Source of the DNA: Pristiophorus japonicus
Lineage: Eukaryota
Direction of reading: 5' to 3'
DNA: 64,000 nt
Assembly (NCBI RefSeq): GCF_044704955.1
Contig: NC_092007.1
Location: 10,292,001-10,356,000, forward strand
Shown here: piece after piece, positions 9,683-46,410 of the stretch
Numbering within the stretch: position 1 is the first letter of the stretch
Layout of the letters: each line of letters opens with the position of its first letter
Notes under the pieces: model-generated
What the model was told of the DNA's origin: nothing
The model's database searches: none
What the model saw: the letters and a program-made list of their open reading frames with translations, nothing else
Made by a program: the position numbers and the translations under genes

Positions 9683-10119
9683 ACATTTTAGCTGTGTAAC
9701 CCATTGATCACTCCCTGTGTATTATATCTCAGTATTACTGTTACAGACTGTGTCCAAACCGTGTCTCAGGAACACCTTTAGATGTGTAACCCATTGATCA
9801 CTCTCCCTGTGTGAGAGATGATAACGTCCCAAATATCCCACCAATGTGCGGGAACAACAGGCAATTTGTTTATTATTTTCCCTGTTGACAGTGTGGGTGG
9901 GTCTGGCAGAGCCTCATTTCTTGACCATCGTGACCTGACCCACTGCAGTCCTTGTCAGGAAGGTGCTCCCACATTGGGGAATGTGGGAAGAGGCTTCAGA
10001 ACCTCCCTCTGCAGCATCACCTACTGGCCAGCACCAGCAACTGCTTCATGTCGCCTCGGGTTCTTTACTGATTATCGTCAATCTGTGTGCCTCTGGTTAC
10101 CCCCCCTCCTGCCCCTGGG

Positions 10120-10915
10120 AACAGTGTCTCCTGATTCACTCTATCAAAAACCCCTCGTGATTCTGAACACCTCGATTAAATCTCCCCTTAACCTTCTCTG
10201 CTCGAAGGAGAACAGCCCCAGCTTCTCCTCCAAACCCTCTGCGCGGCCTTGACATTTGCCTAACATGCGGCGCCCAGAATTGGACACAATACTCCAGTTG
10301 AGGCCTCACCAGTGATTTATAAAGGTCCCAGGAGGAATTTAAGAACCTAAGAAATAGGAGCAGGAGTCGGCCATATGGCCCTTCGAGCCTGCTCCGCCAT
10401 TCAACACGATCATGGCTGATAATCGACCTCAAGTCCAATTTCCTGCCCGATCTCCATATCCCTTGATTCCTCTGGACCCCAAAAATCTCTCGATCTCAGC
10501 CCTGAATACATTCAGAGACTCAGCATCTACAGTCTTCGGGAGCAGAGAATTCCAAAGATTTACAACCCTCTGAGTCAAGAAATTCCTCCTCATCTCAGTC
10601 CTAAATGGCCGACCCCTTATCCTGAGTCTGTGACCCCTGGTTCTAGACTCCCCAGCCCGGGGGGCAACATCCTCTCAGCATCTACCCTGTCAATCCCTCT
10701 CAGAATCTTGCACGATTCAATGAGATCAGCTCTCATTCTTCTCAACTCCAGAGAGTATAGGCCCGTTCTACACAATCCCTCATCGTAAGACAGCCCTCTC
10801 ATCCCGCAACCAATCCAGTGAACCTCCGTTGAACCGCCTCCATGGCAGATGTGTCCTTCCTTAGATAAGGAGACCAAGACTGTGCACAGTACTCCGCAGT
10901 GCTCCCGATACTGAT
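10120..10915 (-). mobile_element. Two nested CR1 3' fragments
   Basis: LVRPQLEYCVQFWAP and GLYSLELRRMRADLIE on the minus strand; (TTCTTAGG)-like tail near 10335-10352. Confidence 0.85.
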
Positions 10916-11429
10916 CTGAATTTCGGGACAAATCACACTGTTAGCAGAATCCCAGCTGCCCCCATCCTCCCCCTTCCCTGGGGGTGATGGGGTATCACAT
11001 GGACACACAGGCACACAGTTCCCATTATTTACCGAACCTTCACTTTGACAATATGTCACGTCGAACTTAAATTAAAATCTGCAACACCAACAACTTGCAT
11101 TTGAAGGAAGTGACAGGATGAACTTGGAGCCTGTTTTTTAGGCCGAAAACCAAATTCTTCGACCCTAAACCTTCTCGTCTCTTCTCTCTTTAGGATTAAG
11201 AGCTGGTTAGTCGGACTGCAGGTTATAGTGAGGTGCGTGGAAGCAGGTGAGAGTACAGAGCGCGCTGCTTTGTTGTGGGTCTTTTTATTGGGAGGCCCTT
11301 GACTAGGCCTCAGGCCTGTAGTTCAGGGCTGCACCAGGGGCGTAACCGAGACAACCAGGAGTTAGTGGCTGGAGCAGCACGAAGTTGGGAATGTACCCGA
11401 CTGTCACTGTGATCTCCGGGAGGTCAATC

Positions 11430-11690
11430 GCAGCAACATCTTGCATTTATATAGCACCTATTAGGGCCCAAGGCCCTTCACAGGAGCAGTTAACCAGACT
11501 AAATTTGACACCGAGCCACGTAAGGGGATATTGGGATAGGTGACCTAAAGCTTGGTCAAAGAGGTGGGTTTTAAGGAGCATCTTAAACGTGGGGAGCGAG
11601 GGAGGTGGAGAGGTTTAGGGAGGGAATTCCAGAGCTTAGGGCCCAGGCAGCTGAAGGCACAGCTGCCAATGGAGGAAGAGAGCAGGAGAG
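11430..11690 (-). mobile_element. L2-type LINE 3' end fragment
   Basis: AFSCLGPKLWNSLP...LKP motif on minus strand; 3' end GCTATATAAATGCAAG. Confidence 0.7.
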
Positions 11691-11894
11691 ACGAGAGAGA
11701 GGAGGGGGGAATTTGGGGGGAGAGAGAGATGGGGAGGGGGAGGATTATAACGGGGCCCTCCCTCACTGCGATCGAGTTCACAATTATTTCAGCAAAATAA
11801 CAGTCGAGCTAAGAGAGAGTTTCCCACAATTATTGTCCTTAAACCTTCCGTACATTCAGACTGGTTCTTCACACCCCAGGTTCATCCCTGAAAA

Positions 11895-12194
11895 GACAGA
11901 CTTGCATTTCTACTGCAACTTTCTCCTCCTCGGCATCGCAAAGCACTTCACCGCCAGTGAAGGACTTTTGAAGTGTGGTCACGATTGCAATGTGTGAAGC
12001 ACGGCAGCCAATTTGCACACAGCAAGCTCTCACAAACAGCAATGTGATAACGACCGGATAATCTGTATTAGTGATGTTGGTTGAAGAACAAATACTTCCG
12101 AGGACACCGGGGATTACTTTCCCCTGCTCTTCTTCGAAATATTGGCTGTGGGATCTTTGATGTCCACCTTCGAGAGCAGACGTCGGTTTAACAT
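11895..12194 (-). mobile_element. Deu-domain SINE (SacSINE1/AmnSINE1-like), split by CR1; head continues at 15605-15665
   Basis: Reverse complement of the uninterrupted copy at about 39870-40225; family assignment from recalled consensus. Confidence 0.7.
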
Positions 12195-25759: not shown

Positions 25760-27154
25760 ATACATTCCTTTAAGGCACAAAAGGCCCACAGGAAAAGTGG
25801 TCCAATCGTGGCTATCAAGAGAAGATAAAGATAGTATTAGATCAAAGGAAGAGGCTTATAATATTGCCAAAAAGAGCGGTAAGTCTGAGGATTGGGAGGA
25901 TTTTAGAATTCATCAAAGGCGGACCAAGAAAGTGATAAAAGGGAAAATAGAATATGAGAGTAAACTAGCAAGAGATGTAAAAACAGACGGTAAAAGCTTC
26001 TATAGGTATGTAAAAAGGAAAAGATTAGCAAAAGTAAATGTGGTTCCTTACATGCTGAGACAGGAGAAATTTTAATGGTGGAATAAGGAAATGGCAGAGA
26101 AATTAAACAAATACTTTGTGTCTGTCTTCATGGAAGAAGACACAACAAACCTCTCGGAAATAGTGGAGAACCAAGGGTCTAGCGAGAATGAATAAATGAA
26201 AGAAATTAGTTTTGGTAAAAAAATATAGTACTGGAGAAATTACTGGGACTGAACGCTGATAAATCCCCTGGACCTGATGGCCTGTGTCCTAGGGTTTTGA
26301 AAGAGGTGGCGATAGAGATGCATTGGTTGTCATCTTCCAAAATTGCACAGATTCTAGAATGGTTCCCGCAGATTGGAAGGTAGCTCATGTAACTGCGCTA
26401 TTTAAGAAAGGAGCGAGAGAGAAAACAGGGAATTACAGACCAGTTAGCCTGACATCAGTCATAAGGAAAATTATATATTATTAAGGACGTAGTAACAGAG
26501 CACTTAGAAAATAATAACAGGATTGGGCAGAGTCAACATGGATTTATGAAATGGACATCATGTTTGACAAATCTGTTAGTTTTTTGAGGTTGTAACTAGT
26601 AAAATAGATAAGGAGGAACCAGTAGATGTAGTATATTTTCAGAAGGCAATCGGTAAGGTGCCACACAAGAGGCTATTGAACAAAATTAGGTCTCATGGGA
26701 TAGCATGGATTGGTTAACAGACAGAAAACAGAGAGTAGGAATAAATGGGACATTTTCAGATTGGTCAGCTGGAACTAGTGGGGTACCGCAAGGATCAGTG
26801 CTTGGGCCCCAAATACTCGCAATCTATATCAATGATTTGGATGAGGGGACCAAATCTAACATATTGAAGTTTGCTGATGATACAAAGCCAGGTGGGAATG
26901 TAAGTTGTGAGGAGGATGCAAAGAGGCTTCAAGGGGATATAGACAGGCTAAGTGAGTGGGCAAGAACATGACAAATGGAATATAATGTGGAGAAATGTGA
27001 AATTATCCACTTTGGTCTGAAAAAACAGAAAAGCAAAGTATTTTTTAACGGTGAGAGATTGTGAAATGTTGGTCTTCGGAGGTACCTGGGTAGCCTTGTA
27101 CACGAATCACTAAAAGTTAAAATGTAGGCACAGCAAGCAATTAAGAAAGCAAAT

Positions 27155-27399
27155 TAATACGTCCTTACTACACAGTATAAATGCACACAAGGCCCATGCT
27201 TGAGAGAAGGTCAGTCTGTGGCCTGTCCTTTATTTCATAGCACTCAAGTGCAGGAAGTGGGTGGAGCTTCCTCTTTTATATCTAAAGGTCTAGGTTAGGA
27301 GTGTCTCATACAAGTTCACCATCTAGTGGTCATTGTTCTCACAGTGTACAACTTAGATCGGATTATACATGGGTTACAATGCTAGTTAAATACATGACA
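27155..27399 (-). mobile_element. Solo LTR (245 bp)
   Basis: Interrupts CR1; 5-bp TSD CAAAT at 27150-27154 and 27400-27404; minus strand starts TGTCATG and contains TATAAAA then AATAAA. Confidence 0.75.
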
Positions 27400-28244
27400 C
27401 AAATGGTATGTTGGACTTTATTAGAAGAGGATTTGAGTATAAGCGTCAAGACATCTTAGTGCAATTTGTATAGGGCCCTGGTGAGACCACACCTGGAGTA
27501 TTGTGCACAGTTTGGGTCTCCTTACCTAAGGAAGGATATACTTGTCATAGAGGGAGTGCAGCGAAGGTTCACCAGACTGATTCCTGGGATGCGGGGATTA
27601 TCCTATGAGGAGAGATTGAGTAGTTTAGAAGAATGAGAGGTGATCTCATTGAAACATACAAAATTCTTACAGGATTTGACAGGGTAGATGTAGGGAGGAT
27701 GTTTCCCCTGGGCTGGGGAGTCGAGAACAAGGATCACAGTCTCAGAATAAGGGGGCAGCCATTTAGGACTGAGATGAGGAGGAATTTCTTCACTCAGAGG
27801 GGGGTGAATCTTTGGAATTCTCTACCCCAGAAGGCTGTGGAGGCTCAGTCAGCAATCAATAGATTTTTGAATATTAAGGGAATCAAGGGATATGGCACAA
27901 TGCAGGAAAGTGGATTTGAGGTGGAAGATCAGACATGATCTTATTGAATGGCGGAGCAGCTCGAGGGGCCGAATGGCCTACTCCTGCTCCTAACGCTTAT
28001 TTGTTCACGGGACGTGTGCGTCACTGGCAAGACCACCATTTATTGCCCATCCCCACTTGCTGGTGAGCCGCTGCAGTCCGTATGGCGACACCCCTTTGTG
28101 GCGGGTTGGTACAACTTCGAGGGCAGAAAAGATTCAACTACATTGCTGTGGGTCTGGAGTCACGTATAGTCCAGACCGGGTAAGGGCGGCAGATTTCCTT
28201 CCCTAAAGGACATTAGTGAACCAGATGGGTTTTTAACGACACGA

Positions 28245-28570
28245 CTTCCCTTTCATAGAACCATGGTTGGCTCTACCTAATCATGTTATGATTTTCTAAA
28301 TGCCCTGATACCACTTCCTTACCGATGGATTCCAGCATTTTCCCGACAACTGATGTCAGGCTAACGTCTCTGTAGTTCCTGGTTTTCTCTCTCCTTCCTT
28401 TCTTGAACGCATTTATGGCTACATTTGATCCCTTCCAATCCGCTCGGACCATTCTTGAATCTAGAGAATTTTGGAAGATGACAACCAATGCTCTATCTCT
28501 GCAGCCACCTCTTTTAGAACTCCAGATGCTGGCCATCAGGTCCAGGGCATTTGTTTCTCAAGTACTTTTT
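28245..28570 (-). mobile_element. CR1 RT fragment
   Basis: NYRDVSLTSVVGKMLES on minus strand. Confidence 0.8.
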
Positions 28571-28849
28571 CTCTACTGTTACTTTTATGTTCTCGCTGTC
28601 ATTAGCCCCTTGGTTCCCCACTATTGTTGGAATCCAGGAAGCCTAGGATCCTGTGGGAATACACTCCACGGGTGGATGTAGGTTGTTGGGAATGATGCTG
28701 CTCGGGGTAACTCTGGAAAACTTCCATTCTACCCTCAAAGTTAATGCAATCCTGTTGGATATTTCCCTCTGCCAACCCTGTTCATGATCCTTCCTGATCA
28801 GTTTGACCCCAGTCTCGTTCCTCCCTGGTTGTGTTTCATCCCGGCCTGC

Positions 28850-29365
28850 AAGACCATCAGCAGGCCGGGGCCACTGGAGGGAGCAGCGTGTGGCGGTATA
28901 CCACTGCAGGGAGCAGCGCATGCTGCTGCAGGGGGGGCGCTGATTGCAGTGCGGGCAGACACAGCAGGAGGGGCGAAGGAGCGGCAAGAATCTGTAAAGG
29001 GAAGTAACCGGGGCCCAGGAGAGATGTGAATATGGGGCCCAGAAGAGGCGAGGGCCCAGGGGCAGCACGGGGCAGCCCACACTGTGCGATATGTGTGCGC
29101 GCTCGGTCCGTGCAGCAGAGCTGGTCTCCAGTCGTCCTGGTTAACTCTTGCCACTGGACCAAGACCTCGCTCTGTCAAGCCTGTGTGGTGGCTGGTGTGT
29201 AACGGTCACCACATGTTAAAAAATCCACCCACAGGCATCTTCCACCCTTCACGATGTAGTTCGGGATCTGGAATATTAGGTCCTTCATTGAAACATCTGT
29301 GAACTCATCCCTTTTTGGCATGGAAGCAAGTCATCCTCGCTTTGAGGGACTGCCTATGATGATGA
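28850..29365 (+). mobile_element. Non-coding element sharing the RTE 3' end (RTE-dependent SINE-like)
   Basis: Ends GGAAGCAAGTC...GAGGGACTGCCTATGATGATGAT like the RTE copies but has an unrelated GC-rich body; second copy at 33218-33534(-). Confidence 0.65.
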
Positions 29366-29429
29366 TAAAGTCTTTGAACATTTTTGCAGTTTGTTTCACA
29401 CAATACTAAACACACGATGTTTTCTTTAG

Positions 29430-29468
29430 AGCGAGCCCGTTCACCTGGACCGAACACGCCCGCACCAG
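29430..29468 (+). CDS. Pro-rich linker mini-exon (ERARSPGPNTPAP/G)
   Basis: Acceptor gttttctttAG, donor CAG/GTAAAT, 39 nt, phase 1-1, in a small non-repeat island between V1 and V2. Confidence 0.65.
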
Positions 29469-29499
29469 GTAAATCTGTTTCTAATCTACTGCATGTGTT

Positions 29500-30780
29500 T
29501 CCAGCTCTTGTATTTGTTCTTTGAGGAAGTAGCGAACAGGGTGGGTAAGGGGGAACCAGTGAATGTGGGGTATGTGAATTTCCAGAAAATATTCGGTAAG
29601 ATGCCACATAAAAGGTTACTGCCCAAGATAAGAGCTTACGGGATTGGGGGTAATATATTAGCATGGATAGAGGATTGGCTAACTAATAGAAAACAGAGAA
29701 TCGGGATAAATGGATAATTTTCCAGTTGGTAAACTGTAACTAGTGGGGTGCCACAGGGATCAGTGCTGGGGCGTCAAATATTTACAATCTAAATTAATGA
29801 CTTGGATGAAGGGACCGAGTGTAATGCACCAAGTTTGCTGATGATACAAAGATGGGTGGGAAAGCAAGTTGTGAGGAGGACACAAAAAATTTGCAAAGGG
29901 ATATAGACAGGCTAAGTGAATGGGCAAAAATTTGGCTGATGGAATTTAATGTGGGAAAATGTGAGGTTATCCACTTTGGCAGGAAAAATAAAAAAGCACA
30001 TTATTATTTAAATGAAGAGAAATTAGAGAATTTTGCAGTACAGAGGGACCTGGGGGACCTTGTGCATGAAACATAAAGTTAGTGTGCAGGTATAGCAAGT
30101 GATCAGGAAGGCAAATGGAATCTTGGCCTTTATTGCAAGGGATATAGAGTATAAAAGCAGAGAAGTCCTGCTACAACTGTACAGGGTATTGGTGAGGCCA
30201 CACCTGGAGTACTGCATACAGATTTGGTCTCCTTATTTAAGGAGGGATATACTTGCATTGGAGGCAGTTCAGAGAAAGTTCACTCGGTTGATTCCTGAGA
30301 TGAAGGGGTTGACTTATGAGCAGGTTGGGCCTATACTCATTGGAGTTTAGAAGAATGAGAGGTGATCTTATTGAAACAAATACAATACTGAGGGGGCTCG
30401 ACAAGGTGCAGAGGATGTTTTCCCTGAAGAAGATAGATGCAGAGAGGATGTTTTCCCTCGTGGGGGAATCTAGAACTAGGGGGCATAGTTTCAGAAGAAG
30501 GCGTCTCCCATTTAGACCTGAGATGAGGAGGAATTTCTTCTCTCTGAGGGTTGTAAATCTGTGAAATTCTCTGCCCCTGAGAGCTGTGGAGGCTGGGACA
30601 TTGAATATATTTAAGGTGGAGATAGACAGATTTTTAAAGTTAAGGGAGTGAAGGGTTATGGGGAGCGGGCAGGGAAATGGAGCTGAGCCCAAGATCAGAT
30701 CAACCATGGTCTTATTAAATGGCGGAGCAAGCTCGAGGGGCCAAATGGCCTACTCCTGCTCCTATTCCTTATGTTCTTAT
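29500..30780 (+). mobile_element. CR1 RT and 3' fragment
   Basis: PHKRLL, LVRPHLEYC, TTATGTTCTTAT tail. Confidence 0.92.
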
Positions 30781-31327
30781 ACTGATCATGCTAAATAGAC
30801 GGGGAGTAACGCTGGAAGGTTTGAAAAGCTGTTTGATATTGTGCCAAAGACCGATTCTGTGAGTGAGTGGTGTGGATCACCGTTACCTGGAACCGTTCCT
30901 TAAACTACCTGCAACTGTTATTTCTGCTTCTGAGCCTCCCCTTCCTGTCCCTCAGTTACTGAACACTGAGGATTCCCGCTTCCCACCAGCATTAGTGTTT
31001 CTGGAAGTCTGTGGGGAAGTCCGAACCATCCTGTCGGGAATCTGACGGGATTGGGAGCAACGCTGGCTGACATCACCGGAGAGTAATATTGTCCCGGGTG
31101 TGAAACCAGCGTTCCACCCGATCCCGAGCAAAGAGTGACAGAAGAATGATGCTGCCTTACACGGGACTTGTCATTATAAATAGTACAGGCCTGAGCTTCA
31201 GTCTTCCCACAGAGATGGTCAGAGCTACTCGTAAATTGAGTATCGCAGTGTAACTGTGTGAAGCTTGAAATGTACTGTACCCGCAGGGAGGTTCTATCTG
31301 TGGATAAATACTTTGAATCTTTTCCAG

Positions 31328-31672
31328 GTTCTTCACCTGTCACAGTTTCTGGGTCCGTTGGGGGGCAGGTTGTGCTGCCCTGTACCTACAAAGGGAACGT
31401 CCCAGTCCCAGATTTACAAGTACTCTGGCAAATACCCGGGCGTGAAGTTGTCCACAGGTTTGTCGGTGGGAGCGATGATTTGACAGAGCAAGACCCGCAG
31501 TTCAGAGAGAGAACCAACCTCTTCAAAGACCAACTGGAACACGGTAACTGGTCAGTTATGCTCTCTGACCTCAGGGAGTCCGACCAGAACACGTTTGAGT
31601 GTCACATGCTCAGGTTGATGCGTACGCGCTTTTGTTGGGAGCAAGGTGTCTCAGTCCGTCTCTCTGTCACAG
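31328..31672 (+). CDS. Ig V-set exon 2, duplicate of exon 1
   Basis: Same splice sites and 345-nt length; VVLPCTYKG...QDPQFRERTNLFKDQLEHGNWSVMLSDLR...FEC. Confidence 0.93.
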
Positions 31673-32731
31673 GTGAGAGATTTCTGTTTCAGGGTTTCTG
31701 CATTGATCAGGAGTCTATCACCAATGTTATGGGTACGGTAATGCAGGGGTTATGTTACTGGACAAGTAATCCAGAGGTCTGGACTCACAATCCAGAGAAG
31801 GCGAGTTCAAATCCCACCACGCCACTTCGAGAACGTGAGAATAAATCTGGAAATACAAAATTGGTTCCAATAAAAGTGACCTTGAAGCTGTTGGATTGGC
31901 TTAAAACCCAACGGGTTCACTAATGTCCTTCAGGGAAGGAAACCTGCCGTCTTTACCCGGTCTGGTCTACATGTGACTCCAGTCCCACACCAATGTGGTT
32001 GGACCTTTCACGGCCCCCTGATGTAGCCCAGCAAGCCAATCCGTTGCATCAAACCACTAGAAAGAAGCCACATTTTACTGAACAACCCAGACATCGAACC
32101 AGGACACAGCAAAGGCAAACCCAGCCCAGTCGACACTGCAAAGTCCTCCTCATGAACATCTGGGGACTTGCGCCCAAGTTGGGAGAGCTGTGTGACATAG
32201 TCATACTCCCAGAATCAACCCTACATCCCAGCCTGCTCCATCACCATCCCTGTCCCACCGACAGGACAGACCCAAGGGTGGGGACACAGTGGTATACAGT
32301 CGGGTGGGAGTGGCCCCGGGAGTCCTCAACATTGAAGACAATGGAGAGTAGAATTGTCCCGGGTGTGAACCCGGCGTTCCACCTGATCGCGTGACTTTCC
32401 CGACCCGCAAATGAGTTTAAAATTCCCCCCTATTCCAGCGGGCTGTTGGGTTAAATTGTAGGGAGGCTGCTCATGGTCAGTGTTCAGATATCTCTATCGG
32501 AAAGCCTGTATCGATCACATTGTGGGGCAGTGTGTGTGTGTGTGCAAGGAGCTGTGGGATGGCCTGGTGTGTGAGATTATTGGAATCTAACCTCTCACAT
32601 CCCTCCCGGGCTAGAATTGACCAGGGATCTATTTGTGCTGGGGATGGTTCTGAAGCACTCGGTGCTGAAGGTCTCCGCTGTTAGCTTTGTGAGTGTGTTC
32701 CAATCTGTTAACGGCTTCATTCTGTCTCTAG

Positions 32732-32828
32732 ATCCTGGGTGCTCTAGCGAAGGAATCGTTGGATTGGGAATCGGGATTCCTCTTCTTCTTGTTGTTGTAA
32801 TTGGGGATTAGGTGAACCGACACCGACA
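32732..32828 (+). CDS. Transmembrane exon with in-frame TAG (DPGCSSEGIVGLGIGIPLLLVVVIGD*VNRHR)
   Basis: Acceptor tctgtctctAG phase 1; hydrophobic stretch; TAG at 32809-32811; basic RHR then GTGAGT donor. Confidence 0.75.
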
Positions 32829-33217: not shown

Positions 33218-33534
33218 CTCATCATCATAGACAGTCCCTCGGAATTAGGATAACTTGCTTCCACGCTGAAAAGGGATGAGTTTGCAGGTGCTTCAATGAA
33301 TATTCCAGATCCCGAACTACATCCTGATGGTTGGAAGATACCTGTGGGTGGATTTTTTTTAACGTGTGGTGACCGTTGCACACCAGCCACCACACGGGCT
33401 TGACAGAGCAAGGTCTCGGTCCAGTGGCAAGGGTTAACCAGGATGACTGGAGACCTGCTCTGCTGCACGGACCCAGTGCGCGCACATATCGCAGTGTGAG
33501 CTGGTCCATGCTGCCCCTCGGCCCGCACCTTTCC
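33218..33534 (-). mobile_element. RTE-dependent SINE-like element, second copy
   Basis: Reverse-complement match to about 29050-29365. Confidence 0.7.
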
Positions 33535-34188
33535 TGGGCCCCGAACTCTCGCCTCTCCCGGGCCCCGAACTCTCGCCTCTCCTGGGCCCCGAACTCTCGC
33601 CTCTCCTGGGCCCCGAACTCTCGCCTCTCCTGGGCCCCGAACTCTCGCCTCTCCTGGGCCCAGAACTCTCGCCTCTCCCGGGCCCCGAACTCTCGCCTCT
33701 CCCGGGCCCCGAACTCTCGCCTCTCCCGGGCCCCGAACTCTCGCTTCTCCCGGGCCCCGAACTCTCGCCTCTCCTGGGCCCCGAACTCTCGCCTCTCCCG
33801 GGCCCCGAACTCTCGCCTCTCCCGGGCCCCGAACTCTCGCCTCTCCCGGGCCCCGAACTCTCGCCTCTCCCGGGCCCCGAACTCTCGCCTCTCCCGGGCC
33901 CCGAACTCTCGCCTCTCCCGGGCCCCGAACTCTCGCCTCTCCTGGGCCCCGAACTCTCGCTCCTCCCGGGCCCCGAACTCTCGCCTCTCCTGGGCCCCGA
34001 ACTCTCGCCTCTACCGGGCCCTGAACTCTCGCCTCTCCCGGGCCCCGAACTCTCGCCTCTCCCGGGCCCCGAACTCTCGCTCCTCCCGGGCCCCGAACTC
34101 TCGCCTCTCACGGGCCCCGAACTCTCGCCTCTCCCGGGCCCCGAACTCTCGCCTCTCCCGTGCCCCGAACTCTCGCCTCTCCTGGGCC
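33535..34188. repeat. 24-bp minisatellite, about 27 units
   Basis: Unit GGGCCCCGAACTCTCGCCTCTCCY. Confidence 0.97.
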
Positions 34189-35574: not shown

Positions 35575-36075
35575 AAGAATGGAATCATAGACATTTACAG
35601 CACACAAGGTGGCCATTTGGCCCATTGTGTCCGTGCCGGCCGACAAAGAGCTATCCAGCCTAATCCCACCTTCCAGCTCTTGGTCCGTAGCCCTGCAGGT
35701 TACTGCACTTCAAGTGCATAGACAATTGCTTTTTAAATGTGGTGAGGGTTTCTGCCTCTACCACCCTTTCAGGCAGTGAGTTCCAGACCCCCAGCACCCT
35801 CTGGATCAACTCCCCTCTAATCCTTCACCAATTACTTTAAATCTAAGCCCCCTGGATGTTGACCCTTCTGCTTAGAGAAACAGGTCCTTCCTATCCACTC
35901 TATCCAGCCCCTCATAATTTTATACACCTCAATCAGGTCTCCCCTCAGCCTCCTCTGTTCCAAAGAAAACAACCCCAGCCTATCCAATCTTTCCTCGTAG
36001 CTAAAATTCTCAAATCCTCGCAACATCCTTGCAAATCTCCTCTGTACCCTCTCTAGTGCAATCACTTCTTCCTGT
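35575..36075 (-). mobile_element. CR1 3' fragment
   Basis: ALERVQRRF...LEQRRLRGDLIEVYKIM on minus strand. Confidence 0.85.
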
Positions 36076-36077
36076 CA

Positions 36078-38528
36078 TGTGGAAACAGCAATAATCATGG
36101 GTGATAATAACCTCCATATTGATTGGACAAATCAAATTGGTCAGGGCAGCCTTGAGGAAGAGTTCACAGAGTGCATAAGGGACAGGCTCCTTGAGCAGTA
36201 TGTAACAGAACCAACCAGATGGCAGGCTATCTTCGATCTGGTCCTGTGTAATGAGAAGGATTATTGTCCTAGTAAAGGATCCCCTTCGAATGAGTGATCA
36301 TAGCATGATTGAATTTCAAATTCAGATGGTGGGTGAGAAAGTTGGATCTCTAACCAGCGTACTAAGCTTAAATAAAGGAGACTATGAAGGTATGAGGGCA
36401 GAGTTGACTAAAGTAGACGGTTGATGAACAGTAGTGTAAATTTAAGGAGATATTTCATAACTCTCAAGAAAAATATATTCCAGTGAGGAGGAAAGGGTGT
36501 AAGAGAAAAGATAGCCACCGTGGCTAACTAAAGAAATAAAGGACGGCATTCAATTAAAAACAAGGTCATACAAAGTGGCCAAAACTAAATGGGAAACTTT
36601 TAAAATCCAGCAAAGAATGACTAAAAAAATGATTAAGAAAGAGAAGATAGACTATGAAAGTAAACTAGCACAAAATATAAAAACAGATAGCAAAAGTTTC
36701 TATAGGTATATAAAAAGGAAAAGAGTGGCTAAAGTAAATGTTGGTCCCTTGGAGGACGGGACCGGGGAACATGGAGATGGCAGAAACTCTGACCAAATAT
36801 TTTGTATCAGTCTTTACAGTAGAGGACACAAACAATATCCCAACAGTGGATAGTCAAGGGGCTATGGTGTGGGGCGGGGGGAGAGGAGGGGGCGGGGGGG
36901 GGGAGAAACTTAACACAATCACTAAGGAGGTGGTACTCAGTAAGATAATGTGACCAAAGTCAGATAAATCCCCTGGACCTGATGACTTGCATCCTAGGGT
37001 CTTGAGAAGTAGCGGCAGGGATTGTGGATGCATTGGCTGTAATTTACCAAAATTCCCTGGATTCTGGGGAGGTCCCAGCAGATTGGAAGACTGCAAATGT
37101 AACGCCCCTATTTAAAAAGGGAGGCAGACAAAAAGCAGGAAACTATAGACCAGTTAGCCCAACATCTGTGGTTGGGAAAATGTTGGAGTCCATTATTAAA
37201 GAAGCAGTAGCAGGACATTTGGAAAAGCATAATTTGGTCAGGCAGAGTCAGCATGGATTTATGAAGGGGAAGTCATGTTTGACAAATTTGCTGGAATTCT
37301 TTGAGGATGTAACGAAGAGGGTGGATAAAGGGGAACCAGTGGATGTGGTGTATTTGGACTTCCAGAAGGCATTTGACAAGGTACTGCATAAAAGGTTACT
37401 GCACAAGATAAAAGTTCACGGGGTTGGAGGTAATATATTAGCTTGGATAGAGGATTTGCTAACTAACAGAAAACAGAGACTCGGGATAAATGGGTCATTC
37501 TCGGGTTGGCAATCAGTAACTAGTGGGGTGTCGCAGGGATCAGTGCTGGGACCCCAACTATTTACAATCTATATTAACGACTTGGAAGAAGGGACCGAGT
37601 GTAACGTAGCCAAGTTTGTTGATGATACAAAGATGGGAGGAAAAGCAATGTGTGAGGAGGACACAAAATCTGCAAAAGGACATAGACAGGCTCAGTGAGT
37701 GGGAAAACATTTGGCAGGTGGAGTATAATGTTGGAAAGTGTGAGGTTATCCACTTTGGCAGAAAAAAATCAAAGAGCAAGTTATTATTTAAATGGAGAAA
37801 GATTGCAAAGTGCTGCAGTACAGAGGGACCTGGGGGTACTTGTGCATGAAACACAAAAGTACAGCAAGTGATCAGGAAGGCCAATGGAATCTTGGCCTTT
37901 ATTGCAAAGGGGATGGAGTATAAAAGCAGGGAAGTCTTGCTACAGTTATACAGGTATTGGTGAGGCCACACCTGGAATACTGTGTGCAGTTTTGGTTTCC
38001 ATATTTACGAAAGGATATACTTGCTTTGGAGGCAGTTCAGAGAAGGTTCACTCGGTTGATTCCGGAGATGAGGGGGTTGACTTATGAGGAAAGATTGAGG
38101 AGGTTGGGCCTCTACTCATTGGAATTCAGAAGAATGAGAGGTGATCTTATCGAAACGTATAAGATTATGAGGGGGCTTGACAAGGTGGATGCAGAGAGGA
38201 TGTTTCCACTGATGGGGGAGACTAGAACTAGGGGGCATGGTCTTAGAATAAGGGGCCGTCCATTTAAAACTGAGATGAGGAGGAATTTCTTCTCTCAGAG
38301 GGTTGTAAATCTGTGGAATTCTCTGCCCCAGAGAGCTATGGAAGCTGGGACATTGAATAAATTTAAGACAGAAATAGACAGTTTCTTAACCGATAAGGGA
38401 TTAAGGGGTTATAGGGAGGGGGCAGGAAAGTGGACCCGAGTTCATGATCAGATCAGCCAAGATCGCATTAAATGGTGGAGCAGGCTCGAGGGGCCGTATG
38501 GCCTGCTGCTGTTTCTTATGTTCTTATG
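36078..38528 (+). mobile_element. CR1 ORF2, 5'-truncated, defective
   Basis: Endonuclease end, RT (YLDFQKAFD, QGSVLGP), TTCTTATGTTCTTATG tail. Confidence 0.95.
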
Positions 38529-39065
38529 TGGTGACCAGAACTGCACCAAGTTCTCCAAGCTGCGGCCTAACCAGTGTTTTACACAGTTCAAGCATAACCT
38601 CCCTGCTCTTACATTCTATGCCTCAGTTAACCAAGGCAAGTATCTCGTAATCCTTCTGAACCACCTTTTCTACCTGACCTGCAACCTTCAGGGATCTGTG
38701 GACATACAAGGTCCCACTGTTCATCTACACTTCTCAGTATCCTGCCATTTATTGTGTATTCCTTTGTCTTGTTCGACTCACCTCACACTTCTCCAAGTTA
38801 AATTCCATTTGCCAATTCTCTGCCCAGCTGACCAGTCCATTGATATCTTCCCGCTGTCTAGCTCCCTTCCTCACGATCAACCACACAGCCAAGTTTTGTA
38901 TCCTCTGCAAACTTCTTCATCATTGAAGTCTAAATCATTGATATATATATAGGTGTGACGTCCGACATCCGGAAACCTCGGGACTGAGGCCATTCCGGGT
39001 AATTTCGGAACGTCTTTGCCTGGGATGGGGTGGGGGTGGGTGGGGAGGTCAGTCGGGTAGCCGGA

Positions 39066-39900
39066 GGTCGGAGGGGCGGTACTGAGGGAGCGCTGCACTG
39101 TCGGAGGGGCAGTACTGAGGGAGTGCCGCACTGTCGGAGGGGCAGTACTGAGGGAGTGCCGCACTGTCGGAGGGGCGGTACTGAGGGAGCGTCGCACTGT
39201 CGGAGGGGCAGTATGAGGGAGCGCCCCACTGTCGGAGGGGCGGTACTGAGGGAGCGCCGCACTGTCGGAGGGGCAGTACTGAGGGAGCGCCGCACTGTCG
39301 GAGGGGCAGCATGAGGGAGCGCCGCACTGTCGGAGGAGCAGTACTGAGGGAGCGCCGCACTGCAATGTCGGAGGAGCAGTACTGAGGGAGCGCCGCACTG
39401 TCGGAGGGGCAGTACTGAGGGAGTGCCGCACTGTCGGAGGGGCAGTACTGAGGGAGTGCCGCACTGTCGGAGAGGCGGTACTGAGGGAGCGCCGCACTGT
39501 CGGAGGGGCAGTACTGAGGGAGTGCCGTACTGTCGGAGGGGCAGTACTGAGGGAACGCCGCACTGTCGGAGGGGCAGTACTGAGGGAGCGCTGCACTGTC
39601 GGAGGGGCAGTACTGAGGGAGCGCCGCACTGTCAGAAGGGCAGTACTGAGGGAGCGCCGTACTGTCGGAGGGGCAGTACTGAAGGAGCGCCGCACTGTCG
39701 GAGGGGCAGTACTGAGGGATCGCCGCACCGTCGGAGGGGCAGTAGTGAGGGAGCGCCGCACTGTCGGAGGGGCGGTACTGAGGGAGCGCTGCACTTTCAG
39801 AGGGGCAGTGCTGAGGGAGCGCTGCACCATCAGAGGGGCAGTGCTGAGGGAGCGCTGCACCATTAGAGGGGCGGTAGTGAGGGAGCGCCACACCGCTGGA
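39066..39900. repeat. 33-bp SINE-derived minisatellite, about 25 units
   Basis: Unit GCACTGTCGGAGGGGCAGTACTGAGGGAGCGCC; runs directly into the SINE body. Confidence 0.95.
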
Positions 39901-40225
39901 GGTGCCATCTTTTGCCATGAGATGTTAAACCGACGTCTGCTCTCTTAAGGTGGACGTCAAAGATCCCACAGCCAATATTTCGAAGAAGAGCAGGGGCGAG
40001 TAATCCCCGGTGTCGTCGGAAATATTTGTTCCTCAACCAACATCACTAATACAGATTGTCCGGTCATTATCACATTGCTGTTTGTGAGAGCTTGCTGTGT
40101 GCAAATTGGCTGCCGTGCTTCACACATTGCAATCGTGACCACACTTCAAAAGTCCTTCACTGGCGGTGAAGTGCTTTGCGATGCCGAGGAGGAGAAAGGT
40201 GCTGTAGAAATGCAAGTCTGTCTTT
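39870..40225 (+). mobile_element. Deu-domain SINE (SacSINE1/AmnSINE1-like)
   Basis: GATGTTAAACCG...AAAGATCCCA...GAAGAAGAGCAGGGG...AAATTGGCTGCC...AAATGCAAGTC resembles the recalled consensus. Confidence 0.7.
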
Positions 40226-42079
40226 TCAGGGATGAGACCTGGGGTGTGAAGAACCAGTCTGAATGTACGGAAGGTTTAAGGACAATAATTGTGGGAAACT
40301 CTCTCTTAGCTCGACTGTTATTTTGCTGAAATAATTGTGAACTCGATCGCAGTGAGGGAGGGCCCCGTTATAATCCTCCCCCTTCCCATCTCTCTCTCCC
40401 CCCAAATTCCCCCCTCCTCTCTCTCATCTCTCCTGCTCTCTTCCTCCATTGGCAGCTGTGCCTTCAGCTGCCTGGGCCCTAAGCTCTGGAATTCCCTCCC
40501 TAAACCTCTCCACCTCCCTCGCTCCCCACCTTTAAGATGCTCCTTAAAACCCGCCTCTTTGACCAAGCTTTAGGTCACCTATCCCAATATCCCCTTACGT
40601 GGCTCGGTGTCAAATTTAGTCTGGTTAACTGCTCCTGTGAAGGGCCTTGGGCCCTAATAGGTGCTATATAAATGCAAGATGTTGCTGCGATTGACCTCCC
40701 GGAGATCACAGTGACAGTTGGGTACATTCCCAACTTCGTGCTGCTCCAGCCACTAACTCCTGGTTGTCTCGGTTACGCCCCTGGTGCAGCCCTGAACTAC
40801 AGGCCTGAGGCCTAGTCAAAGGCCTCCCAATAAAAAGACCCACAACAAAGCAGCACGCTTGGTACTCTCACCTGCTTCCACGCACCTCACTATAACCTGC
40901 AGTCCGACTAACCAGCTCTTCATCCTAAAGAGAGAAGAGACGAGAAGGTTTAGGGTCGAAGAATTTGGCTTTCGGCCTAAAAAACAGGCTCCAAGTTCAT
41001 CCTGTCACTTCCTTCAAATGCAAGTTGTTGGTGTTGCAGATTTTAATTTAAGTTCGGCGTGACATATTGTCAAAGTGAAGGTTCGGTAAATAATGGGAAC
41101 TGTGTGCCTGTGTGTCCATGTGATACCCCATCACCCCCAGGGAAGGGGGAGGATGGGGGCAGCTGGGATTCTACGCCCCCCCTCTCCCCTCAACAGTGTG
41201 ATTTGTCCCGAAATTCAGATCAGCATCGGGAGCACTGCGGAGTACTGTGCACAGTCTTGGTCGCCTTATCTAAGGAAGGACACATCTGCCATGGAGGCGG
41301 TTCAACGGAGGTTCACTGGATTGATTGCGGGATGAGAGGGCTGTCTTACGATGAGGGATTGTGTAGAACGGGCCTATACTCTCTGGAGTTGAGAAGAATG
41401 AGAGCTGATCTCATTGAATCGTGCAAGATTCTGAGAGGGATTGACAGGGTAGATGCTGAGAGGATGTTGCCCCCGGGCTGGGGACTCTAGAACCAGGGGT
41501 CACAGACTCAGGATAAGGGGTCGGCCATTTAGGACTGAGATGAGGAGGAATTTCTTGACTCAGAGGGTTGTAACTCTTTGGAATTCTCTGCTCCCGAGGG
41601 CTGTGGATGCTGAGTCTCTGAATATATTCAGGGCTGAGATCGAGAGATTTTTGGGGTCCAGAGTAATCAAGGGATATGGAGATCGGGCAGGAAATTGGAC
41701 TTGAGGTCGATTATCAGCCCTGATCGTGTTGAATGGCGGAGCAGGCTCGAAGGGCCATATGGTCAACTCCTGCTCCTGTTTCTTGGGTTCTTAAATTCCT
41801 CCTGGGACCCACTGGTGAGGCCTCAGCTGGAGTATTGTGTCCAATTCTGGGCGCCGCATGTTAGGAAAATGTCAAGGCCTTGCAGAGGGTGTGGAGGAGA
41901 AGCTGGGGCTGTTCTCCTTCGAACAGAGAAGGTTAAGAGGAGATTTGATTGAGGTGTTCAAAACCATGAGGGGTTTTGACAGAGTGAATCAGGAGACACT
42001 GTTTCCACAGGTCAGAGCCCCATAATCCAGGCTGACAATTCCAGATACATTACTCAGAGCGCTATACTGTCGGAGGGGC

Positions 42080-43521
42080 ACTCTCTCTCCCTGCATCCCT
42101 CTCCCTCTCTCTCCACTCCCTCTCTCTTTCTCCTTCCCTCTCACGCCCCACCACTCCCTCTTTCTACCCTCCCATTCGCTCACTCTTTCCCCTGCCCACT
42201 CTCCCTCTCTCTCCACCACCCCCTCTCTCTCACTCTTTCTCCCCCCCACTCTCGACCCTCCCCACCCCCNNNNNNNNNNNNNNNNNNNNNNNNNNNNNNN
42301 NNNNNNNNNNNNNNNNNNNNNNNNNNNNNNNNNNNNNNNNNNNNNNNNNNNNNNNNNNNNNNNNNNNNNNNNNNNNNNNNNNNNNNNNNNNNNNNNNNNN
42401 NCTCTATCTCTCCCCCCCAAAACTCCCTCTCTCTCTCTCTATCTCCCCCCCACTCTCTCTCTCTCTCTCTCCCCCCCACTCTCTCTCTCCCCCCCACTCT
42501 CTCTCTCCCCCCACTCTCTCTCTCCCCCCCACTCTCTCTCTCCCCCCCACTCTCTCTCTCCCCCCACTCTCTNNNNNNNNNNNNNNNNNNNNNNNNNNNN
42601 NNNNNNNNNNNNNNNNNNNNNNNNNNNNNNNNNNNNNNNNNNNNNNNNNNNNNNNNNNNNNNNNNNNNNNNNNNNNNNNNNNNNNNNNNNNNNNNNNNNN
42701 NNNNNNNNNNNNNNNNNNNNNNNNNNNNNNNNNNNNNNNNNNNNNNNNNNNNNNNNNNNNNNNNNNNNNNNNNNNNNNNACTCCCAATCTCTCTCCCCCC
42801 CACTCTCTCTCTCTCCCCCCACCCCCACTCTCTCTCTCTCTGTCTCTCTACCCCCCGTCTCTCCCCCCACTCCTCCCTCCCCCCAACACCCACTCTCTCC
42901 CCACCCACTCCCACCCTCTCCCCCCCCCCACTCTCACCCTCTCTTCGCCCCACACTCTCCCCCCCCTCGCACTCCCACTATCCCCCCCCCCAAATCCTAC
43001 TCTCCGTCCCCCACTCCCACTCTCTCTCCACCCACACCCCCAGTCTCTCTCCACCCACCCCCACTCTTCTCCCCCCTCCCCCACTCTCTCACTCTTTCTC
43101 CCCCCAATCGCGACCCTCCCACCCCCTCTCTCTCTCCCCGCCCCACTCTCTCTCTCTCTCTCCCCCCACTCTCTCTCTCCCCCCCACTCTCTCTCTCCCC
43201 CCACTCTCTTTCTCTCCCCCCCCCACTCCCTCTCTCTCCCACCGCCACTCTCTCTCTCCCCCCCACTCCCTCTCTCTCTCTTTCTCTATTTCCCCCCCAC
43301 ACTCTCTCTCTCTCTCTCCCCCACCTCTCTCTCTCTCTCTCTCCCCCCACTCTCTTTCTCTCTCCCCCCCACTCCCTCTCTCTCTCTCTCCCCCCCCACT
43401 CCCTCTCTCTCTCTTTCTCTATTTCCCCCCACACTCTCTCCCTCCCCCACCACACTCTCCCTTTCTCTCTCCTCTCTCTCTCTCTCTCTCTCCACCCCCC
43501 CCACTGTCTGTCTCCACCCGC

Positions 43522-43554
<33 letters not shown>

Positions 43555-44813
43555 CCCCCCACTCCCACTCTCTCTCCACCCCCCACTCCCACTCTCTCTC
43601 TCCTCCCCCACTCCCACTCTCTCTCCCTCCCCACTCTCTCTCTCCCCCCACCTACTCTCTCTCCTCCCCCACTCTCTCTCTCTCTCTCTCTCCCCCCCAC
43701 TCTCTCTCTCAACCCCCACTCCTCTCTCCCTCCACTCTCTCTCTCTCCCTCCACTCTCTCTCTCTCTCTCCCCCCACTCTCTCTCTCCCTCCACTCTCTC
43801 TCTCTCTCTCTCTCCCCCCACTCTCTCTCTCTTCCCCCCCCACTCTCTCTCCCCCCATTCTCTCTCTCTCCCCCCACTCTCTCTCTCTCCCCCCACTCTC
43901 TCTCTCCCCCCCCCCACTCTCTCTCTCTCCCCCCCACTCTCTCTCTCCCCCCCACTCCCATTCTCTCTCCCCCCCCCGCACTCCCATTCTCTCTCCCCCC
44001 CACTCCCAATCTCTCTCTCCCCCCCACTCCCAATCTCTCTCCCCCCCACCCCCACTCCCACTCTCTCTCTCTCTCTCCCACCCCAACACTGTCTCTCTCC
44101 CCCTCCGTCTCTCCCCCCCCCCACTCCTCCCTCCCCCCAACACCCACACTCTCCCCCCAACACCCACACTCTCCCCCCCCACTCCCACCCTCTCCCCCCC
44201 ACCCTGTCCCCCCCCCCCACTCCCACCCCCCCAAATCCCACTCTCCCCTCCCCAACTCCCACTCTCTCTACCACCCCACTCTCTTTCCACCCACACCCCC
44301 ACTCTCTCTCTCTCTCTCCCCCCACTCTCTCTCTCTCTCTCCCCCCCACTCTCTCTCTCCACACCCCCCCACTCTTTCTCTCCACCCCCCACTCTCTCTT
44401 CACCCCCCCCACTCTCTCTCTCTCTCTCTCTCTCTCCACCCCGCCCCCCACTCTCTATCTCTACCACCCCCACATTCTCTCTCTCTCTCTACCCCCTTCT
44501 CTCTATCCAGCCCCCCCACTCTCTCTCTCTCTCTCTCTCTACCCCCCCACTCTCTCTCTCTCTCTCCCCCCCCACTCATTCTCTCTCCCCCCTACTCCCA
44601 TTCTCTCACTCACNNNNNNNNNNNNNNNNNNNNNNNNNNNNNNNNNNNNNNNNNNNNNNNNNNNNNNNNNNNNNNNNNNNNNNNNNNNNNNNNNNNNNNN
44701 NNNNNNNNNNNNNNNNNNNNNNNNNNNNNNNNNNNNNNNNNNNNNNNNNNNNNNNNNNNNNNNNNNNNNNNNNNNNNNNNNNNNNNNNNNNNNNNNNNNN
44801 NNNNNNNNNNNNN
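42080..44813. repeat. CT-rich low-complexity tract with three N runs
   Basis: (CT)n/CCCCCA repeats; N runs near 42270-42401, 42573-42779 and 44614-44813. Confidence 0.95.
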
Positions 44814-45980
44814 CCCGTAACCCTTAATTCCCTTATTGCTTAAAAATCTATCTATCTTTGACTTGAAAACATTCAATGGGCCAGCCTCAACTGCTTCCTT
44901 GGGCAGAGAATTCCACAGATTCACAACCCTCTGGGAGAAGAAATTCCTTCTCAACTCGGTTTTAAATTGGCTCCCCCGTATTTTAAGGTTGTGCCCCCTA
45001 GTTCTAGTCTCCCCGACCAGTGGAAACAACCTCTCTGCCTCTATCTTGTCTATCCCTTTCATTATTTTAAATGTTTCTAAAAGATTCCCCCCTCATGAAT
45101 CCATGCTGCGTCTGCTTGATTGCACTATTCCTATCTAGATGTCCCGCTATTTCTTCTTTAATCATAGTTTCAAGCATTTTCCCGACTACAGATGTTAAAC
45201 TAACCGGCCTATAGTTACCTGCCTTTTGTCTGTACCCTTTTTTAAACAGAGGCGTTACATTCGCTGTTTTCTAATCCGCTGGTACCTCCCCAGAGTCCAG
45301 AGACTTTTGGCAGATTATAACGAATGCATCTGCTATAACTTCCGCCATCTCTTTTAATACCCTGGGATGCATTTCATCAGGACCAGGGGACTTGTCTACC
45401 TTGAGTCCCATTAGCCTGTCCAGCACTACCACTAGTGATAGTGATTGTCTCAAGGTCCTCCCTTCCCACATTCCCGTGACAAGCAATTTTTGGCATGGTT
45501 TTTGTCTTCCACCGTGAAGACCGAAGCAAAATAATTGTTTAAGGTCTCAGCCATTTCCACAATTCCCATTATTAAATCCCCCTTCTCATCTTCTAAGGGA
45601 CCAACATTTACTTTAGTCACTCTTTTCCATTTTATATATCTGTAAAAGCTTTTACTATCCGGTTTTATGTTTTGCACAAGTTCACCTTCGTAATCTATCT
45701 CCCTTTCTTTATTGCTTTCTTAGTCATTCTTTGCTGTCGTTTAAAATTTTCCCAATCTTCTAGTTTCCCACTAACCTTGGCCACCTTATACGCATTGGTT
45801 TTTAATTTGATACTCTCCTTTATTTCCTTGGCTATCCACGGCTGGTTATCCCTTCTCTTACCGCCCTTCTTTTTTACTGGAATATATTTTTGTTGCGCAC
45901 TATGAAAGAGCTCCTTAAAAGTCCTCCACTGTTCCTCAATTGTGCGACCGTTTAGTCTGTGTTTCCAGTCTACTTTAGCC
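44814..45980 (-). mobile_element. CR1 fragment with internal deletion, same subfamily as 12195-15597
   Basis: Matches about 13427-14315 joined near 45090 to about 15200-15478. Confidence 0.9.
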
Positions 45981-46162
45981 TCCCCCCCCATTTCTCTCTC
46001 TCCCCCCCTCCCCACTCTCTCTCTCTCTCCCCACTCTCTCTCTCTCTCTCTCTCCCCGCTACCCACTCTCTCGCTCCCCTCTCTCTCTCTCTCCCCTCTC
46101 TCTCTCCCACTCTCTCGCTCTCTCTTTCTCTCTCTCTCTATCCCACACTGCCCTCCCACTAC

Positions 46163-46180
46163 CTGCAGCGCCTGTCCCAT
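46163..46180 (-). CDS. Candidate first coding exon (MGQALQ, phase 0 donor)
   Basis: gcgATGGGACAGGCGCTGCAG/GTAGTG downstream of a CpG-rich promoter-like region; six codons only, so weak alone. Confidence 0.4.
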
Positions 46181-46189
46181 CGCTCGCTC

Positions 46190-46410
46190 TCCCCGGGGCC
46201 GCATTCCCGGAGGCGGTGAACGGGTGAGGATCGGACTCGGGGACTTTACAAACAATATGGGAGGGCGGGGGGATCTAATCCGGGCCGGCGGGGGGACCAA
46301 TCCGGGCTGACTCAGAGCTGCAATAAATCAGAGCCCCGCCCCCGAGCTGTTACACCGTGGGGGCGGGGCTCTGGTTTGCTGCAGCTCTGAGTCAGAATCT
46401 GTGCAGCACA
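46190..46410. promoter_or_regulatory. CpG-rich promoter-like region with GC boxes, CCAAT and two AP-1 sites in a 37-bp inverted repeat
   Basis: GGGCGG x3, CCAAT at 46297, TGACTCA at 46308 and TGAGTCA at 46388; arms 46307-46343 and 46359-46395. Confidence 0.6.

What the first reader, a model, noticed from the sequence alone, without database searches (positions are those of the whole stretch)
10115..46410. Ig receptor gene body between long inverted repeats, with a matching promoter and first exon pointing the other way
Seen: the + strand leader exon (19808) needs a phase-0 upstream ATG exon. A phase-0 candidate, ATGGGACAGGCGCTGCAG/GT with a CpG promoter behind it, lies on the minus strand at 46180-46163, outside the right arm. 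The gene body is enclosed by inverted arms 10115-15986 and 38803-42010. Inference: inverting the interior would give MGQALQ-GPTWQNLLLLLLL-V-linker-V-TM on one strand, so the locus could be an inversion polymorphism or on/off switch. Alternatives: the block between N runs (18301-42269) is misoriented in the assembly, or the local candidate at 19412-19448 is the real exon 1.
Basis: partly seen in the sequence, partly recalled or inferred. Interest (0 to 1): 0.75.

Follow-up and report, generated by a model that had tools for sequence, protein, structure and literature searches.

The report
Shark immune gene, likely flipped contig
A shark immune-receptor-like gene appears cut off from its real first exon, most likely because the 26 kb piece carrying it was placed backwards between two gaps in the genome assembly rather than because the DNA flips as an on/off switch.

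Summary
The anatomy is real. An intact B7-like leader-V-linker-V-TM body (19808-32811, +) lacks a start codon; its exon 1 (MGQALQ, 46180-46163) lies on the minus strand. A paralog 39 kb away carries the same exon 801 bp upstream of its leader, same strand; shark relatives begin M-x5-Q|G. The local candidate cannot supply an ATG. But the body and the right arm lie on one 26.3 kb contig (18301-44613) between the only two 200-N gaps in 438 kb, and both contig ends are long GA/CT runs. Reversing that contig restores the paralog's layout and turns the 'inverted arms' into an old tandem duplication. The arms are poor recombination substrates (54 substitutions and 6 gaps in 2097 columns, longest perfect run 165 bp, a LINE in one arm, no RSS). 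No read spans either gap, so orientation is not proven. Odds: misoriented contig 0.62; old real inversion that orphaned exon 1 0.17; segregating inversion 0.08; own exon 1 hidden in the left gap 0.08; local exon 0.03; regulated switch about 0.02.

The parts
46163..46180 (-). Coding exon 1, MGQALQ, phase-0 GT donor
   Evidence: colinear paralog copy at G000:C33:10377065; 15 of 50 related proteins start M-x5-Q before the leader
46181..46420 (-). CpG-rich promoter-like region and 5' UTR, with an internal inverted repeat 46307-46395
   Evidence: promoter activity is inferred, not shown
45980..46162 (-). Start of intron 1: GA run
   Evidence: same place as the GA run in the paralog
44814..45980 (-). 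5'-truncated, internally deleted LINE in intron 1; runs into the gap about 100 bp short of the family's 3' end
   Evidence: its internal junction is unique in the genome
44614..44813 (.). 200-N run, also N in G000; inferred scaffold gap (right edge of contig)
42080..44613 (-). 2.5 kb GA run (read on minus) ending the middle contig
39922..42007 (-). Right arm, part A (96% to 10116-12194); cut inside an interspersed repeat at its outer edge
38803..39928 (-). Right arm, part B with 33-bp minisatellite; continuous with a genome-wide repeat across its inner edge
32732..32811 (+). Transmembrane exon ending in the stop codon
31328..31672 (+). V-set exon 2
29430..29468 (+). 39-nt linker exon (predicted)
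   Evidence: AG/GT edges, keeps frame
20962..21306 (+). V-set exon 1
19808..19865 (+). Signal-peptide (leader) exon without ATG
19370..19807 (+). 3' part of intron 1, 84-98% like the four paralogs; includes the rejected local candidate 19412-19448
18301..19370 (+). GA run starting the middle contig
18101..18300 (.). 200-N run, also N in G000; inferred scaffold gap (left edge of contig)
15987..18100 (+). 2.1 kb CT run ending the left contig
15598..15986 (+). Left arm, part B; cut by the CT run
12195..15598 (+). 3.4 kb LINE inserted in the left arm only, with a short target-site duplication; empty site in the right arm
10116..12194 (+). Left arm, part A; continuous with a genome-wide repeat across its outer edge
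9740..10031 (+). Orphan fragment of the gene family's 3' region (93-95% to three paralogs)

Best explanation
This is an ordinary shark B7-like V-V-transmembrane gene whose body lies on a 26.3 kb contig (18301-44613) that was likely placed backwards between two scaffold gaps, so that in the animal exon 1 and body would sit on one strand. Shown: exon 1 is the family's first coding exon; the body is an open frame without a start; the contig is bounded by the only two 200-N runs in 438 kb and ends in GA/CT runs on both sides. Inferred: long reads failed in those runs, long-range scaffolding could not orient so short a piece, and the true order is promoter, exon 1, GA run with a LINE, rest of intron 1, leader, V, linker, V, TM, all on the minus strand. 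The 'inverted arms' would then be an old tandem duplication downstream of the gene. The product would be a type I membrane protein with two V domains and almost no tail, predicted to act as a B7-like cell-surface ligand.
For: Paralog layout: promoter-exon 1-GA run-intron-leader in 801 bp on one strand; the flip gives the same order plus one LINE. Only two N runs in G000:C33:10,222,001-10,660,000, both exactly 200, bracketing the body. Of 5 independent GA-run loci pulled from elsewhere, one has a 200-N run inside the run and one ends its contig in the run. Body intact: 867 nt, one stop, at the last codon; if it had been dead since the arms duplicated, 1.5 disabling hits are expected, P(none) about 0.23 (rough). 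The window's exon-1 region keeps 3 CpG that have decayed in the broken paralog's copy, 0 the other way. Junction ancestry X-A-B-Y is colinear after the flip. Literature: HiFi reads struggle in long GA-rich repeats (PMC10462168, passage); small contigs are hard to orient by Hi-C (bioRxiv 10.64898/2026.06.16.732382, passage); even GRCh38 holds 26 misorientations, median 16 kb (PMC10150506, passages).
Against: No read or contig spans either gap, so the flip is untested. The same junction ancestry fits a real staggered-break inversion equally well, with the same number of junctions. The left gap is CT|N|GA in both orientations, so the flip does not tidy it. Nine of the ten GA runs in 438 kb lie in family introns 1 or at this locus, which a real break in intron 1 explains naturally. 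Close homology of intron 1 to the paralogs stops abruptly near 19370. The intactness and CpG arguments are weak (likelihood ratio about 3-4; 3 versus 0 sites). One of four paralogs is broken, so gene loss is tolerated here. That 200 N marks a scaffold join, and that the assembly used HiFi plus Hi-C, is recalled convention and inference, not a tool result.
Confidence: 0.62

Rival explanations
1. The assembly is right: an old inversion with staggered or template-switch breaks duplicated A-B in inverted orientation, broke intron 1 inside its GA run and left exon 1 orphaned; the body is a young-looking pseudogene.
For: Left arm is the parent at its outer edge, right arm at its inner edge, the pattern of inversion-made inverted duplications (PMC1885836, abstract). 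GA runs cluster at exactly the two would-be breakpoints. Intron-1 homology stops near 19370. No protein of this gene among 48 hits of two searches, although that follows from the assembled order under any reading.
Against: Arms differ by 54 substitutions and 6 gaps in 2097 columns and one took a LINE afterwards, yet the body has no disabling change (P about 0.23) and exon 1 keeps ATG, GT and its CpGs. Needs the two real breakpoints to coincide with the only two gaps, which is partly expected because GA runs cause gaps.
Confidence: 0.17
2. A recent or recurrent inversion segregates: recombination between the arms, or between the oppositely oriented GA runs at the contig ends, toggles the body, giving expressed and null alleles.
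For: Geometry works: either exchange reconnects exon 1 and leader. An intact body fits a recent event. Human inversions between inverted repeats are often recurrent (11 of 16) and some separate first exons from gene bodies (PMC3961182, PMC4576756, passages).
Against: Longest perfect match in arm A is 165 bp, below the 300-500 bp quoted for efficient meiotic NAHR, though shorter tracts sometimes work (PMC2583991, passage). Arms are interrupted by a 3.4 kb LINE and a minisatellite. No second orientation seen in any data.
Confidence: 0.08
3. The body is correctly oriented and has its own plus-strand promoter and exon 1 hidden in the left gap; 46180-46163 is an orphan inverted copy.
For: The left gap has opposite-polarity runs on its two sides in either orientation, so it may hide sequence; true gap size is unknown.
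Against: Needs an unseen third copy; genome searches find only two MGQALQ exons and no unplaced copy; in both known copies a minisatellite, not a CT run, lies upstream.
Confidence: 0.08
4. The local GT at 19449 ends a non-coding or non-AUG first exon, so the gene is expressed in the assembled order.
For: The donor-like word is conserved in all four paralogs and resembles the end of exon 1.
Against: No in-frame ATG, TGA at 19413; no Met in the leader; in the paralogs it lies inside intron 1 below an ATG exon; upstream is GA repeat, not a promoter-like region.
Confidence: 0.03
5. A regulated somatic DNA inversion switches the gene on and off in lymphoid or other cells.
For: Only the layout and the immune-type gene.
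Against: No RSS-like site in the window on either strand (consensus recalled); arms decayed and interrupted; no such system is needed to explain anything seen.
Confidence: 0.02

Closest known systems
Misoriented small contig in a Hi-C scaffold (e.g. 'inversions (misorientated contigs)' in YaHS benchmark PMC9848053; 26 GRCh38 misorientations PMC10150506)
   Same: Short piece between two fixed-length gaps, ends in hard-to-sequence GA repeats, flip restores a colinear gene
   Different: Not confirmed by reads here; the arms' junctions also fit a real inversion
Inversion with staggered breaks (Ranz et al. 2007, PMC1885836)
   Same: Inverted duplicate at both ends, each copy parental on one side only
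   Different: Body shows no decay; an extra CT run at the left junction is not predicted by the simple model; no outgroup orientation available
Gene-splitting inversions between inverted repeats: F8 intron 1 and 22, IDS, CCDC144B (HsInv1051), ZNF257, CTRB1/CTRB2 exon-1 exchange (PMC4576756, PMC3961182)
   Same: First exon separated from the body by an inversion; repeats on both sides
   Different: Breakpoints there lie in regions of high identity; here about 2.5 kb at 96% or less, longest perfect run 165 bp, a LINE in one arm
Shark CD276/VTCN1-like V-set cluster (P0001, P0002, P0049, P0050 and relatives in other sharks)
   Same: Same leader, V-V-TM layout, 58-78% identity in V1; four paralogs within 330 kb
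   Different: This copy has the short MGQALQ first exon, like M-x5-Q in other sharks; three paralogs lack it and are annotated with a longer MGRAQ first exon
Mammalian B7-H4 (VTCN1), B7-H3 (CD276), butyrophilins
   Same: Best solved-structure matches of V1 (E 7e-17, 2e-16)
   Different: Two V domains and no C domain; no B30.2; stop right after the TM segment

Membership tests
Misoriented scaffold contig | Segment bounded by assembly gaps on both sides | tested here: met
   Two 200-N runs, the only N in 438 kb of G000; reading them as scaffold joins is recalled convention
Misoriented scaffold contig | Reversal restores a conserved colinear structure | tested here: met
   Order matches the paralog at C33:10376968-10377941
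Misoriented scaffold contig | Spanning reads or maps support the other orientation | not testable with these tools
   Only short Logan contigs were served; none spans a gap
NAHR-mediated recurrent inversion | Flanking repeats truly inverted | tested here: inconclusive
   Inverted as assembled, direct if the contig is flipped
NAHR-mediated recurrent inversion | Uninterrupted identity of about 300-500 bp (MEPS) | tested here: not met
   Longest perfect run 165 bp in arm A; threshold from PMC2583991 passage, which also lists exceptions
NAHR-mediated recurrent inversion | Both orientations in a population | not testable with these tools
   One assembly, no usable reads
Staggered-break inversion | Each duplicate is parental on one side only | tested here: met
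   a tandem duplication gives the same pattern
Staggered-break inversion | Outgroup shows the uninverted order | not testable with these tools
   No other shark genome is held (no relatives)
Programmed inversion switch (RAG/RSS or recombinase sites) | Recombination signal sequences at the ends | tested here: not met
   0 hits, heptamer up to 1 and nonamer up to 2 mismatches, spacer 12 or 23 plus or minus 1, both strands; consensus recalled
Programmed inversion switch (RAG/RSS or recombinase sites) | Dedicated recombinase and tissue-specific orientation | not tested
   No search for a recombinase was made; no tissue DNA
Classical B7 family | IgV domain closest to B7 members | tested here: met
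   Pfam V-set; best PDB matches VTCN1 and CD276
Classical B7 family | IgV-IgC pair | tested here: not met
   Both domains are V-set, 76% identical to each other; the open frame runs V-linker-V-TM
Classical B7 family | Binds a CD28-family or related receptor | not testable with these tools
   No assay; not folded
Butyrophilin | Cytoplasmic B30.2 domain | tested here: not met
   Stop codon ends the TM exon, as in two paralogs
Shark CD276-like V-set cluster | Shared leader exon, V exons and TM exon with tandem paralogs | tested here: met
   Leader 97-100%, V 88-91%, TM 86-91% to four paralogs; 41 shark proteins

The most novel reading that the evidence does not exclude
The assembled order is a real allele, and a recurrent inversion, through the arms or through the oppositely oriented kilobase GA/CT runs, flips an immune-checkpoint-like gene body away from its promoter, so that sawsharks carry on and off alleles of a B7-like gene, possibly even within one animal.
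Probability: 0.09. Interest if true: 0.7.

Novelty: not a real feature. Interest (0 to 1): 0.2.

Why it matters
If the best reading holds, the value is practical: a local assembly correction that recovers an unannotated fifth member of a shark B7-like cluster, the only copy pairing the ancestral-type short first exon with an intact body, and a warning that 'gene between inverted repeats' can be produced by one flipped contig. If the inversion is real and segregating it would be a structural on/off allele of an immune gene in a cartilaginous fish, like human gene-splitting inversions but in a new lineage; a regulated somatic version would be new for vertebrates, but nothing here points to it.

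Tried and rejected
Reads: no RNA holder listed. Four runs laid on 19430-21400: no contig of X5, X17 or X18 covered the leader; the two long V pieces of X5 match the paralog at C33:10.58 Mb by their difference counts (20 and 14), not this gene; contigs show presence, not absence. Four runs laid on 46150-46415: one 30-base piece in X1, nothing in the other three. Neither call bears on orientation or expression. GA-run 'dialect' comparison to decide which run follows exon 1: a motif shared by 42080-44613 and the paralog's intron looked suggestive, but unrelated GA runs from other chromosomes share rare words at the same rate (0.00-0.16 versus 0.04-0.14), so rejected. Search for an unplaced contig or haplotig holding the gap or a second copy of the intron LINE junction: one hit, the window itself; controls C3803 and C4219 are unrelated simple repeats. 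Synonymous/non-synonymous counts against paralog V exons were not used: gene conversion and V-domain selection confound them. Protein searches found no protein of this gene; P0001/P0049/P0002/P0050 belong to the paralogs. Literature: no paper on this assembly or this gene cluster found by searches; searches supplied background only; the YaHS text read gave no gap length; supplements were not opened. Earlier findings of the scan: nothing near this locus.
Full report
Setting. The window is G000:C33:10292001-10356000 of a 5.9 Gb genome. Paralog exons translate to proteins that UniRef labels Pristiophorus japonicus, so this is that sawshark or a very close relative.

The gene. Exons on the plus strand: leader 19808-19865, V1 20962-21306, linker 29430-29468, V2 31328-31672, TM 32732-32811. 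Together they give 867 nt with a single stop at the last codon. Both domains are Pfam V-set; the best solved relatives of V1 are VTCN1 and CD276; 41 longer and 7 shorter shark proteins match. The body has no start codon. Four paralogs lie within 330 kb: one on plus at 10.377-10.394 Mb, broken by a frameshift in V1 and a stop in V2, and three open ones on minus at 10.574-10.634 Mb.

Exon 1 is real. The 18-nt exon at 46180-46163 has one other copy in the genome search and in a mismatch scan of 438 kb: 801 bp upstream of the plus-strand paralog's leader, same strand, followed by a GA run and the same intron end. Among 50 related proteins, 33 show the leader and 15 of them begin M-x5-Q directly before it, such as MDGKELQ (isoforms counted separately). 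The three minus-strand paralogs lack this exon and are annotated with a longer MGRAQ exon, of which four copies exist, none serving the window gene. The local candidate at 19412-19448 has no usable ATG and is intronic in the paralogs.

The gaps. In G000, 10,222,001-10,660,000 holds only two N runs, each of 200 bases, at window 18101-18300 and 44614-44813 (50 kb of this span was read from the window itself, where it has no N). They bound a 26,313-bp piece that holds the gene body and the right arm, but neither exon 1 nor the left arm. The piece starts with a 1.1 kb GA run and ends with a 2.5 kb CT run. Of five independent GA-run loci from other places, one contains a 200-N run and one ends its contig in the run. 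A review states that HiFi reads struggle in long GA-rich repeats and that such biases cause over 25% of gaps in one study (PMC10462168, passage); small contigs may lack Hi-C signal for orientation (bioRxiv 10.64898/2026.06.16.732382, passage); scaffolders leave misoriented contigs (PMC9848053, passages), and GRCh38 carries 26 misorientations of median 16 kb (PMC10150506, passages). That 200 N marks a join, and the platform used, are recalled or inferred. Reversing the piece gives exon 1, GA run, LINE, gap, GA run, intron end, leader: the paralog's order plus one LINE, about 2.9 kb plus the gap.

The arms. Shared sequence is about 2.5 kb: part A (96%) and part B (84-94%). A has 2 full-length copies among 45 listed matches. 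It carries 54 substitutions and 6 gaps in 2097 columns, longest perfect run 165 bp. A 3.4 kb LINE with a target-site duplication sits in the left arm only. An interspersed repeat runs unbroken across the outer edge of the left arm and is cut in the right; another runs unbroken across the inner edge of the right arm and is cut in the left. So the ancestral sequence was X-A-B-Y in one piece, and the arms were made by one duplication, not kept as recombination sites. After a flip this reads X-A-B, repeat filler, A-B-Y: a tandem duplication. As assembled it reads as an inversion with an inverted duplication, the staggered-break pattern of Ranz et al. (PMC1885836, abstract). The sequence alone cannot separate the two; they differ only in which ends meet at the two gaps.

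What tips the balance. If the inversion that made the arms had cut off exon 1, the body has been unselected for 1.3% divergence, predicting about 1.5 disabling changes; none is seen (P about 0.23, rough). The window's exon-1 region retains three CpG that have decayed in the broken paralog, none the other way. Both are weak. Against the flip: the left gap is CT|N|GA in either orientation, nine of ten GA runs in the region belong to family introns 1 or this locus, and close intron homology stops near 19370. Repeat-dialect tests did not discriminate once controlled. Public runs were short contigs and did not bear on the question.

Switch or polymorphism. But efficient meiotic NAHR is reported to need about 300-500 bp of identity, with exceptions (PMC2583991, passage); these arms offer 165 bp, are interrupted, and may not be inverted at all. 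No RSS-like site was found. No second orientation was seen anywhere.

Verdict. Observation largely right, with corrected edges; the switch is unlikely. Misoriented contig 0.62, old real inversion 0.17, segregating inversion 0.08, hidden exon 1 0.08, local exon 0.03, regulated switch 0.02. These odds are my judgement, built on a prior that a 26 kb repeat-rich contig is often misoriented and on the weak intactness evidence. The gene works like a B7-type surface ligand (inferred) but is not filed as a classical B7 or a butyrophilin, since the C domain and B30.2 tests failed. No paper on this locus was found. Interest 0.2.

Noticed in passing
window 53398-60900: Endogenous retrovirus inserted in a 31-bp minisatellite array: 550-bp terminal repeats 100% identical (53398-53947, 60351-60900), 4-bp target-site duplication, pieces matching zinc knuckle, protease, integrase and envelope; frames are broken into short open stretches. 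Identical repeats point to a recent insertion.
   Followed up: partly
window 789-5029: LTR-retrotransposon-like pol pieces (RVT_1, RT_RNaseH, Integrase_H2C2, rve), about 91% to copies at +116-120 kb and +220-228 kb.
   Followed up: partly
G000:C33:10364188-10368599 vs 10584497-10588912 and 10602415-10606829: 4.4 kb inverted repeats at 99.1-99.5% covering the MGRAQ promoter and exon of oppositely oriented paralogs 220-240 kb apart: much better substrates for a real inversion than the arms in this finding; an exchange would swap gene bodies behind near-identical promoters.
   Followed up: no
G000:C33:10583660, 10600800, 10632100: Three paralogs lack the short MGQALQ exon and its promoter and are annotated with a different upstream exon (MGRAQ...LGK) behind a palindromic CpG-rich region; the plus-strand paralog has both exons. 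Looks like first-exon turnover within the cluster.
   Followed up: partly
window 46307-46395 and G000:C33:10368159-10368337: Both promoter types of this family contain an internal inverted repeat (85-88%) around GC boxes.
   Followed up: no
window 9740-10031: Orphan piece of the family's 3' region, 93-95% to three paralogs, directly left of the left arm; the window gene itself lacks most of this piece, having a SINE and a 24-bp array at 33221-34188 instead.
   Followed up: partly
G000:C3:23522085-23522695 and C6:95335241-95335360: Fragmented V-exon copies of this family on other chromosomes, 61-77% identity, in both orientations at C3.
   Followed up: no
window 46429-64000 and beyond to about 70316: Long 30/31-bp minisatellite array upstream of exon 1, split by a LINE (48957-51662) and the provirus.
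   Followed up: no
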